The translations under genes were made by a program, and so were the position numbers. The notes beneath the pieces were generated by a model. It ran no database searches and was not told the DNA's origin. It saw only the letters and a list, made by a program, of their open reading frames with translations. A stretch of DNA of 64,000 bases from Malacoraja senta (Eukaryota): the NCBI GenBank assembly GCA_038087875.1, contig CM075988.1, forward strand, positions 8,124,001 to 8,188,000. Reading direction: 5' to 3'. Positions 37,671 through 37,860 of the stretch are shown here, piece after piece (within the stretch, counting starts at the first letter, position 1; every line of letters starts with the position of its first letter).

Positions 37671-37860
37671 GAAGATAGACAAAAAATGCTGGAGTAACTC
37701 AGCGGGTCAGGAAGCATCTCTAGATAAAGGAATAGGTGACGTTTCGGGTCAAGACCCTTCCTCAGACTGAAGAAGGGTCTCGACCGAAACATCACCTATT
37801 CTATTTCTGCAGAGCTGCTGCCTAACCCGCTGAGTTACTCTAGCATTTTGTGTCTATCTT
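37671..37860. mobile_element. PLE-terminus fold-back element
   Basis: Palindrome centred on ctcagactgaag at ~37761-37772. Confidence 0.85.

What the first reader, a model, noticed from the sequence alone, without database searches (positions are those of the whole stretch)
37671..37860. Abundant fold-back elements with a hammerhead-ribozyme-like core at the symmetry axis
Seen: about 20 copies of one ~100-130 bp module, many as ~200 bp palindromes (e.g. 594-800, 3388-3612, 20461-20694, 21165-21360, 29020-29261, 37671-37860, 49092-49275, 52615-52775, 57293-57521, 60197-60375). Consensus arm: CTGAAGA-A-GGGTC-TC-GACCC-GAAAC-GTC-ACCTATT. In the tightest copies the fold-back axis (tcag-a-ctga) falls exactly at the CTGA box, so both strands carry the motif. 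The same module ends GIY-YIG fragments (49925-50280, 4030-4575). Established: CUGANGA / GAAA / NUH are the hammerhead core, and Penelope-like elements carry minimal type I hammerheads with a palindromic ACGU in place of helix III. Inference: this is a non-autonomous, ribozyme-containing hairpin family (retrozyme-like) mobilised by PLE machinery, whose antisense arm could sequester the ribozyme. I cannot tell whether it is already described for this lineage.
Basis: partly seen in the sequence, partly recalled or inferred. Interest (0 to 1): 0.75.

Follow-up and report, generated by a model that had tools for sequence, protein, structure and literature searches.

The report
Mirror-image Penelope retrotransposon stumps in skate
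The abundant ~200-base palindromes in this skate gene are back-to-back copies of the hammerhead-motif-bearing end of a Penelope-like jumping gene, each with its own centre, and are likely dead by-products built anew at each insertion, probably from two separately primed reverse transcripts, rather than a self-propagating ribozyme family.

Summary
There are 44 arms at 28 loci (7.3% of the window), most inside introns of skate robo3. Each arm is the non-coding 3' end (pLTR) of an endonuclease-positive Penelope-like element (probably Neptune clade) with a minimal type I hammerhead motif.

Sixteen opposed pairs exist, all head-to-head; 15 look like single insertions. Ten of 16 have 7-14 bp target-site duplications (controls 12 of 240). 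Eleven of 15 have the PLE 'tail' on one arm only.

The replicating-family reading fails. Partner arms share derived bases (32 vs 11.8 expected), one subfamily holds four palindromes with four different centres, and there are no tandem monomers. The exact CTGA axis occurs in 2 of 15. The focal minus-strand ribozyme is intact in sequence but is predicted to be fully sequestered in the hairpin.

Inverted, tailed pLTR units are published for PLEs. Not found in print: 5' ends pile up at the ribozyme's 5' edge (25 of 33), the more truncated arm is usually the tailed one (6 of 7), and other animals' PLEs fold back 8-17 bases upstream of the core. This fits two-primer insertion.

The parts
37672..37770 (-). 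Focal element, untailed arm: PLE 3' end from -5 to +94 (0 = C3 of CUGA), with a sequence-intact minimal hammerhead (C3 at 37765, predicted cut after 37738)
37762..37893 (+). Focal element, tailed arm: -5 to +127; hammerhead motif damaged
37762..37770 (.). Symmetry axis: 9-nt quasi-palindrome shared by both arms; the only 4-bp self-complementary word near the ribozyme's 5' edge
37662..37668 (+). Left target-site duplication (7 bp exact), inside an older ~300-bp SINE-like repeat
37900..37906 (+). Right target-site duplication
38003..38186 (-). robo3 exon; the focal element starts about 100 nt into the following intron
592..801 (.). Head-to-head unit; tailed arm truncated at about +13/+16, untailed arm from +2; TSD 7 bp
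2558..3092 (-). Long unit: inverted tailed arm (from +29), then GIY-YIG end, UTR and untailed ribozyme arm; TSD 12 bp
3389..3616 (.). Head-to-head unit (+4 / 0, 4 extra nt); TSD 10 bp
16789..16993 (.). Head-to-head unit (+14 / +1) inserted into the UTR of an older PLE end; TSD about 14 bp
17127..17321 (.). Head-to-head unit (+4 / +39, 4-nt microhomology), both arms tailed, no TSD found
20461..20694 (.). Head-to-head unit (-5 / -5 with a 24-nt filler), no TSD found
21167..21358 (.). Near-perfect palindrome with axis at the CTGA box; different subfamily from the focal copy; neither arm tailed; no TSD found
28270..28416 (.). Short inverted arm (+45 to +26) joined by 3-nt microhomology to a tailed arm from +1; TSD 13 bp exact
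29020..29262 (.). Head-to-head unit (-1 / -3, 21-nt filler); TSD candidate below threshold
49089..49276 (.). Head-to-head unit (+13 tailed / -3 untailed); TSD 7 bp
52622..52771 (.). Head-to-head unit (+64 tailed / -3 untailed)
53879..53977 (-). Single arm inserted antisense into the UTR of an older PLE end (53774-54114): a secondary insertion, left out of the single-event counts
54614..54886 (.). Inverted arm (from +7) joined to UTR plus arm; TSD 11 bp with 1 mismatch
57291..57521 (.). Head-to-head unit (-3 / -1, 4 extra nt); TSD about 10 bp
60203..60379 (.). Head-to-head unit (+39 tailed / +1..+4 untailed, microhomology) inside a SINE-like repeat; TSD 13-14 bp; the empty site aligns to other SINE copies
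49922..50280 (+). GIY-YIG C-terminus, UTR and ribozyme arm (5'-truncated PLE end)
4083..4575 (+). GIY-YIG C-terminus, UTR and arm
47946..48367 (+). GIY-YIG C-terminus, second UTR type and arm
9137..9422 (-). GIY-YIG C-terminus, UTR and arm
55724..56095 (-). Longest GIY-YIG fragment (no arm attached); 68% identical to a Leucoraja erinacea protein

Best explanation
These palindromes are two head-to-head copies of the hammerhead-motif-bearing 3' end of an endonuclease-positive Penelope-like retrotransposon, with copy-specific centres and target-site duplications, and they are likely dead insertion products made anew each time, probably when two separately primed reverse transcripts are joined at their growing ends. 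Shown: arm identity with endonuclease-linked PLE ends, head-to-head geometry, TSDs, two classes of 3' end (about +79..+99 and +117..+138), copy-specific centres, and subfamily sharing within a unit. Inferred: the element's protein nicks both target strands 7-14 bp apart. One nick primes cDNA at the inner start (about +90, untailed arm) and the other at the outer start (about +125-130, tailed arm). The untailed cDNA usually runs to a strong stop at the ribozyme's 5' edge (-7..+7), while the tailed one often stops earlier. The two 3' ends, being the same sense, can join only through self-complementary words: the TCAG-N-CTGA word gives the perfect palindromes, and other 0-7 nt microhomologies or fillers give the lopsided ones. 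The ribozyme is a passenger. In read-through RNA of either strand the antisense arm comes first and is predicted to pair it away. Confidence: about 0.85 for 'PLE insertion by-product made per event'; about 0.55-0.6 for the two-primer route in particular.
For: Identical module ends five GIY-YIG fragments; the best homologues are chondrichthyan PLE proteins, and 7 of 7 fetched have a CX2-5CxxC linker. TSD score >=7 in 8 of 16 pairs vs 8 of 240 mismatched controls; 10 of 16 vs 12 of 240 after three boundaries were adjusted by eye and the search widened, p = 1.4e-8. Partner arms share 32 non-CpG derived bases vs 11.8 in 20,000 random pairings, p = 5e-5, all 16 pairs included. One clade (97/87) holds arms of four palindromes (3389, 21167, 28270, 49089) with four different centres; another (96/85) joins a palindrome arm with two endonuclease-linked copies. 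The two exact-axis palindromes belong to different subfamilies. One arm tailed and one not in 9 of 10 TSD-flanked units, p = 0.03. In six units the tailed arm lacks core sequence that the untailed arm has while the untailed arm lacks the tail, so neither is a copy of the other without a later deletion. 25 of 33 arms not continuing into UTR start at -7..+7, p = 2e-11 against a uniform spread to +64. In other animal PLE families from metagenome contigs, 18 of 116 motif instances have a head-to-head partner and 0 of 110 a tail-to-tail one. In vitro, a lizard PLE protein cuts and extends both strands and starts at two sites that bound the tail (PMC11167929, main text read).
Against: Tail asymmetry over all 15 units (11 of 15) is not significant alone, p = 0.10; the polarity rule is 6 of 7, p = 0.125. 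Units 21167 (no tail), 17127 (two tails) and 20461 (intermediate ends) do not fit. Five of the 15 single-event units have no TSD at threshold. The focal pair shares 0 derived bases, and 5 of 16 pairs share none. Shared derived bases could also come from arm-to-arm conversion. One junction class (+4 joined to about +37/38) recurs in 17 contigs of run X1; this fits a microhomology hot spot but also a copied master. No genome-wide sample of junctions was available (no genome held; raw-read runs X22 and X23 laid 0 reads). The in vitro work is on a Poseidon-clade element, not this one.
Confidence: 0.65

Rival explanations
1. Same PLE by-product, but made by self-priming: one cDNA (or an antisense template, as Arkhipova et al. 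2013 proposed) folds back at TCAG-N-CTGA and copies itself. The endonuclease trims one end to leave a one-sided tail, and lopsided centres come from later deletions at the hairpin tip.
For: The axis word is the only 4-bp self-complementary word at the 5' edge. Exact axes occur in 2 of 15 units. Axes of other PLE families also sit at local quasi-palindromes, 9 of 13 distinct units at -8..-17. Published suggestion of self-priming (PMC3846280, passages) and of endonuclease-made tails (PMC8557442, passages). Asymmetric central deletion of palindromes is known (recalled, no call).
Against: Later deletions should be blind to which arm has the tail, yet the more truncated arm is the tailed one in 6 of 7 (p = 0.125). 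Unit 2558 has a long untailed copy with a short tailed inverted arm, and unit 28270 a 20-nt inverted arm starting at +45; neither is a trimmed perfect palindrome. Single arms at 16338, 23527 and 44545 also start at -7..-1 without a partner.
Confidence: 0.2
2. One reading: a non-autonomous, retrozyme- or MITE-like hairpin family is transcribed and re-inserted as a whole by PLE proteins, with the antisense arm switching the ribozyme off.
For: High copy number; TSDs flank whole palindromes; arms outnumber endonuclease ends 44 to 7-8 in the window and are much deeper than the endonuclease in summed contig depth (not a copy number); one junction class recurs in 17 contigs; predicted sequestration is real.
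Against: Centres differ within a subfamily and recur across subfamilies. Ends are asymmetric and match PLE start sites. No tandem monomers. No excess or strand skew of A>G/T>C in palindromes (0.016 per A/T site vs 0.021 in other arms; low power), which a hairpin RNA intermediate edited by ADAR might leave. Only 2 of 28 cores are intact.
Confidence: 0.1
3. The hairpins are kept by the host for a function in robo3 pre-mRNA (double-stranded RNA, splicing control, or a switchable ribozyme).
For: The focal unit lies about 100 nt into an intron with its intact ribozyme on the sense strand, and unit 49089 lies about 95 nt before an exon.
Against: Arms are 78-94% identical to consensus, with CpG decay, and partners differ by 6-21%. 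Private mutation rates are the same in paired and other arms (0.049 vs 0.051). At 28 loci per 64 kb, nearness to exons is expected.
Confidence: 0.05

Closest known systems
Insertion units of endonuclease-positive Penelope-like elements with inverted pLTR and tail (Arkhipova et al. 2013, PMC3846280; Craig et al. 2021, PMC8557442; passages read)
   Same: Head-to-head inverted 5'-truncated copy, short palindrome or overlap at the junction, 30-40 bp tail on one end, TSDs of about 8-10 bp or none.
   Different: Here most units are reduced to the two pLTR arms alone (150-240 bp) at very high density, 5' ends cluster at the ribozyme's edge, and truncation tends to fall on the tailed arm.
Minimal type I hammerheads of metazoan PLEs (Cervera and de la Pena 2014, PMC4209133; results and discussion read)
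   Same: CUGANGA and GAAA boxes, extra base before helix II, G-C first pair, palindromic ACGU in place of helix III, mostly single dispersed copies; that paper also notes pairs 100-700 bp apart on opposite strands.
   Different: Helix II is 4-5 bp and helix I only 2 bp before a mismatch; cartilaginous fish are not named in the parts read (supplements not seen).
Anolis Poseidon element PAc in vitro (Frangieh et al. 2024, PMC11167929; main text read)
   Same: Two reverse-transcription starts bounding the tail, both target strands cut and extended, ribozyme not needed for insertion.
   Different: Poseidon clade, whereas this family's homologues have the Neptune-type linker; that paper does not describe joining of two cDNAs in the text read.
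Animal non-LTR retrozymes (PMC7229834, passages; bioRxiv 10.64898/2026.07.22.740005, parts 1 and 3 of 5 and passages)
   Same: Type I hammerhead, non-coding, related to PLE pLTRs, reported from one chondrichthyan.
   Different: Retrozymes are head-to-tail tandems of monomers, and in PMC7229834 those tested had canonical ribozymes and gave circular RNA; these units are dispersed, head-to-head and minimal.
Twin priming of LINE-1 (recalled; no paper read)
   Same: Two target nicks each prime a cDNA and the ends join by microhomology, giving an inversion.
   Different: In L1 the second primer starts internally, giving non-overlapping inverted pieces; here both starts lie at the 3' end, so the same sequence is copied twice.

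Membership tests
Endonuclease-positive Penelope-like element insertion | Repeat lies downstream of a C-terminal GIY-YIG endonuclease | tested here: met
   Five fragments end in the module; homologues at E = 8.5e-36 and weaker; the Pfam GIY-YIG hit itself is weak, E = 0.022, below cut-off
Endonuclease-positive Penelope-like element insertion | Telomerase-like RT in the same ORF | tested here: inconclusive
   No PLE RT fragment in the window by tblastn with three homologues; homologues P0023 and P0033 carry PF00078
Endonuclease-positive Penelope-like element insertion | Inverted 5'-truncated copy, head-to-head | tested here: met
   16 of 16 opposed pairs are head-to-head
Endonuclease-positive Penelope-like element insertion | 30-40 bp tail, often on one end only | tested here: met
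   3' ends bimodal: 24 of 44 at +79..+99, 16 of 44 at +117..+138; one-sided in 11 of 15 units (p = 0.10) and 9 of 10 TSD-flanked units (p = 0.03)
Endonuclease-positive Penelope-like element insertion | Variable TSDs | tested here: met
   7-14 bp in 10 of 16 vs 12 of 240 controls
Neptune clade | CX2-5CxxC linker before the endonuclease | tested here: inconclusive
   Window fragments begin downstream of it; present in 7 of 7 homologues fetched of 36 found, including the 68% identical one
Minimal type I hammerhead ribozyme | CUGANGA, GAAA, palindromic ACGU and NUH site in order | tested here: met
   Consensus and focal minus strand; core positions 324 of 345 conserved; 2 of 28 arms fully intact
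Minimal type I hammerhead ribozyme | Helix II with G10.1-C11.1 and an extra base after A9 | tested here: met
   4-5 bp; loop 65% vs stem 89% conserved
Minimal type I hammerhead ribozyme | Helix I of 4-5 bp | tested here: inconclusive
   Two pairs hold (22 of 27 and 22 of 24 standard), the third is A-C; the same positions covary in other families, 72 of 105 cells vs shuffle mean 39.9, max 56
Minimal type I hammerhead ribozyme | Compensatory changes within the family | tested here: not met
   Only one-sided changes and breaks in stems I and II
Minimal type I hammerhead ribozyme | Match to an Rfam hammerhead model | tested here: not met
   No hammerhead family among 4 hits at E <= 1; whether Rfam models cover helix-III-less forms was not checked
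Minimal type I hammerhead ribozyme | Self-cleavage as dimer or with protein | not testable with these tools
   Folding gives stem II probability 0.06-0.25 for the consensus, and the two-copy minimum-energy fold is not the active dimer
Non-LTR retrozyme | Head-to-tail tandem monomers of 150-450 bp | tested here: not met
   None of 13 tandem rows involves the module
Non-LTR retrozyme | Expressed as circular RNA | not testable with these tools
   No raw RNA reads available; X15 is contigs, probably DNA
MITE-like replicating palindrome family | Shared centre, symmetric ends and fixed TSD length across copies | tested here: not met
   Centres, ends and TSD lengths all vary

The most novel reading that the evidence does not exclude
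Skate genomes hold a vast fossil record of one unsolved step of Penelope-like transposition: a dimeric enzyme primes two cDNAs from opposite target nicks at two fixed RNA start sites, the first halts at a strong stop on the ribozyme's 5' edge (the transcript's 5' end or a pause), and the pair is joined head-to-head. The fold-back just upstream of the hammerhead would be a general rule across animal PLEs.
Probability: 0.4. Interest if true: 0.55.

Novelty: new member of a known kind. Interest (0 to 1): 0.3.

Why it matters
As a class this is ordinary: inverted, tailed PLE ends with minimal hammerheads are published. It matters in three smaller ways. It warns that such palindromes are not new ribozyme replicons or microRNA precursors (Rfam gave chance miRNA-like hits). 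If the density here were typical, skate introns would be full of ~90-bp hairpins. And the end and junction statistics make an open question directly testable in existing skate assemblies: how PLEs finish integration and make inverted pLTRs.

Tried and rejected
Whole genome: none held. Rfam: no hammerhead hit; three miRNA-precursor hits and one bacterial RNA hit are below gathering and reflect hairpins or chance. Raw-read test of junctions: X22 and X23 laid 0 reads, so no test; contig runs X1 and X15 showed 15 of 138 joints and cannot show RNA ends. A joint skipping the UTR (48055->48266, one contig per run, letters between not known) cannot be read as splicing. Viral contigs: 0 matches. Covariation within the window: none compensatory. 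Dimer folding did not give the active form. ADAR footprint test: negative, low power. Arm tree is mostly unresolved (6 of 35 forks starred; 6 of 44 short arms left out). Ribozyme-cut 5' ends as the source of truncation: only 2 arms start at +26..+29, so rejected as the main cause. The pair first read as 28212-28424 was re-read as 28270-28416, and 53879 was dropped as a secondary insertion. Lunse et al. 2017 is not held and is known only through a review's passages; one search opened an unrelated paper. Not-in-print claim rests on searches (0 papers for Penelope + skate + Neptune). Repbase and Dfam could not be searched, and the supplements of PMC4209133 and the bioRxiv preprint were not seen; either may list this family.

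Full report
Setting. An ORF at 48712-48993 (minus strand) is 99% identical to Leucoraja erinacea roundabout homolog 3 and 98% to Amblyraja radiata. tblastn places robo3 exons from 57808 down to 24162. The window is therefore skate DNA, and the gene runs on the minus strand. No whole genome is held. The stretch 49900-50290 is held at 0.65-0.71 of its words by runs of eight coded organisms, so the family is shared among relatives.

Observation. A profile built from 16 window copies finds 44 arms at 28 loci, 7.3% of the window. I number positions from C3 of the CUGA box (0). Sixteen pairs are opposed, all with 5' ends inward and 3' ends outward. The focal unit has a minus-strand arm from -5 to +94 and a plus-strand arm from -5 to +127, overlapping over TCAG-A-CTGA at 37762-37770. 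It folds as one hairpin (z = -19.9), has a 7-bp direct repeat on both sides, and sits in an older SINE-like repeat about 100 nt into a robo3 intron.

What the arm is. The same arm ends five fragments that encode a GIY-YIG C-terminus followed by a pyrimidine-rich UTR. The longest endonuclease fragment hits chondrichthyan proteins best (68% to a skate protein). The seven homologues fetched all have the CX2-5CxxC linker, which points to the Neptune clade (Craig et al., PMC8557442, passages); the linker itself is not in the window, nor is any PLE RT. The arm is thus the pLTR end of an endonuclease-positive PLE.

The ribozyme. The consensus has CUGAAGA, an extra A, a 4-5 bp helix II, GAAA, palindromic ACGU and a GUC site, as in the minimal hammerheads of Cervera and de la Pena (PMC4209133, parts 1-2 of 4 read). 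Non-CpG conservation is 94% in the core, 89% in stem II, 65% in loop II, 71% upstream and 74% at +31..+40, but 91% at +41..+89. The core therefore stands out from its immediate flanks but not from the downstream block; alignment edges inflate the values near -5. No compensatory change occurs within the window. Helix I has two pairs and then an A-C mismatch. Rfam finds no hammerhead. A pattern scan of metagenome contigs gave 121 loci from other PLE families: no similarity to the skate downstream sequence, and GIY-YIG hits in 27 loci in the part of the output shown. In them the helix I positions, which were not in the pattern, covary (72 of 105 cells over 35 types; shuffles 39.9, max 56). The motif class is thus a real hammerhead fold, and the skate family is a weak-helix-I example whose activity is untested. 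Only 2 of 28 arms spanning the core are intact, one being the focal minus strand. In the palindrome, stem II has probability 0.0 on both strands.

Family or by-product. TSDs of 7-14 bp flank 8 of 16 pairs against 8 of 240 controls, or 10 of 16 against 12 of 240 after three boundaries were refined by eye. For 60203 the rejoined flanks align across the junction to other SINE copies; for the focal unit two copies reach only 6 nt past it. Most units are therefore single events. One pair (53879) is a secondary insertion into an older PLE UTR and is left out below. Centres differ (left/right inner ends: +16/+2, +4/0, +14/+1, +4/+39, -5/-5 with filler, +26/+1, -1/-3 with filler, +13/-3, +64/-3, +7/UTR, -3/-1, +39/+1, +29/endonuclease) with 0-7 nt of overlap or short fillers. 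Two are exact at the CTGA word, and these belong to different subfamilies. Partner arms share more derived bases than random pairs (32 vs 11.8, p = 5e-5), though five pairs including the focal one share none. One supported clade holds four palindromes with four centres, and another links a palindrome to two endonuclease-bearing copies. There are no tandem monomers and no A-to-G excess (low power). A remaining point for the rival: the +4/+37-38 joint is the best supported strand switch in run X1 (13 + 4 contigs). In the window it occurs in two different subfamilies at a shared purine-rich word, which favours recurrence.

Mechanism. The 3' ends are bimodal (about +90 and about +125-130), the PLE tail signature. 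Eleven of 15 units have exactly one tailed arm (p = 0.10), and 9 of 10 TSD-flanked ones do (p = 0.03). Of 33 arms that do not continue into UTR, 25 start at -7..+7 and 8 at +14..+64. Where one arm is cut deeper, it is the tailed arm in 6 of 7 (p = 0.125; 17127, with two tails, not counted). In those six, each arm has sequence the other lacks, so simple fold-back copying needs an added, tail-aware deletion. Two cDNAs primed from the two nicks explain this directly. Frangieh et al. (PMC11167929, parts 1-2 of 4 read) showed both-strand cutting and extension, two start sites bounding the tail, a predicted dimer, and no need for ribozyme cleavage. The joining step and the cause of the stop are my inference. 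Candidates for the stop are a transcript 5' end (the TCAGT word resembles an initiator, recalled), a pause before the C-rich tract, or trapping at the self-complementary word. In the metagenome loci, 18 of 116 instances (14 loci, 13 distinct) have a head-to-head partner within 320 nt and 0 of 110 a tail-to-tail one; 9 of 13 axes lie at -8..-17, one at -32.5 and three beyond -85. Fold-back near the ribozyme is therefore general, and coincidence with the CTGA box is particular to this family's sequence.

Known work. Arkhipova et al. (PMC3846280, passages) describe head-to-head inverted pLTRs with palindromes at the junction, optional one-sided tails and 8-10 bp TSDs, and suggest self-priming. 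Craig et al. (passages) and a curation guide (PMC8969392, passages) treat this as a general PLE trait. Cervera and de la Pena note paired minimal hammerheads on opposite strands. Schostak et al. (PMC2377424, passages) place promoter and intron in the pLTR. Retrozymes are defined by tandem monomers (PMC7229834, passages; bioRxiv 10.64898/2026.07.22.740005, parts 1 and 3 of 5). I found no paper on this skate family, the 5'-end hot spot or the tail polarity, but Repbase, Dfam and supplements were out of reach. Two earlier AI reports on other genomes reached the same by-product reading; they are not independent support.

Verdict. A real, abundant feature and a new member of a known kind: minimal inverted PLE insertion units. 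It works like the known PLE inverted-pLTR products and meets the tested structural criteria for them; it is not a retrozyme by the tandem criterion. Interest 0.3; the junction rules could reach 0.55 if they hold genome-wide.

Noticed in passing
window 24162-57808, minus strand: Eleven tblastn segments of robo3 (cytoplasmic region); the focal unit and unit 49089 each lie about 100 nt from an exon.
   Followed up: partly
upstream of arms at 4445, 48258, 50195, 9137; endonuclease stop near 50110: All three UTR types end in a pyrimidine tract plus CAG right before the ribozyme, like a splice acceptor, and one endonuclease stop overlaps a donor-like word. In D. virilis Penelope an intron ends at helix I (PMC4209133). 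Not seen in most metagenome families; no RNA evidence.
   Followed up: partly
16789, 17127, 53879: Arms or units inserted into or next to older copies of the same PLE end, suggesting homing into its own UTR.
   Followed up: partly
arm positions +47..+80 and +105..+112: A second hairpin is predicted downstream of the ribozyme, and the tail repeats its 3' strand; each of the two 3' end classes lies 10-20 nt after such a box. Candidate RT-start signal.
   Followed up: no
28270-28289 and 2991-3092: Two inverted arms begin at +26..+29, beside the predicted cleavage site; too few to tell from chance.
   Followed up: partly
20573-20596 and 29110-29130: Fillers at two centres look like scrambled pieces of the ribozyme core, as from repeated template switching.
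   Followed up: no
26400-26609: Older, decayed head-to-head unit whose left arm was missed by the profile search.
   Followed up: partly
35364, 41098, 48258, 50195, 53981 versus 44545, 53879: Unpaired arms inside robo3 are antisense to the gene 5 times and sense 2 times (both with broken cores); not significant.
   Followed up: no
39310-40061; 1-345; 30261-30558; 58819-59033: Other inverted-repeat elements (242-nt arms at 96%; 111, 66 and 36 nt), probably DNA-transposon derivatives.
   Followed up: no
about 20 loci such as 1032-1324, 18273-18581; and 62724-63311: A ~300-bp SINE-like family (label from recall), and an RT fragment (Pfam RVT_1, E = 4e-8) of CR1-like appearance (label from recall).
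   Followed up: no
L009, L100: Metagenome loci with long head-to-head PLE ends about 290 nt apart around a spacer that is itself partly palindromic.
   Followed up: no
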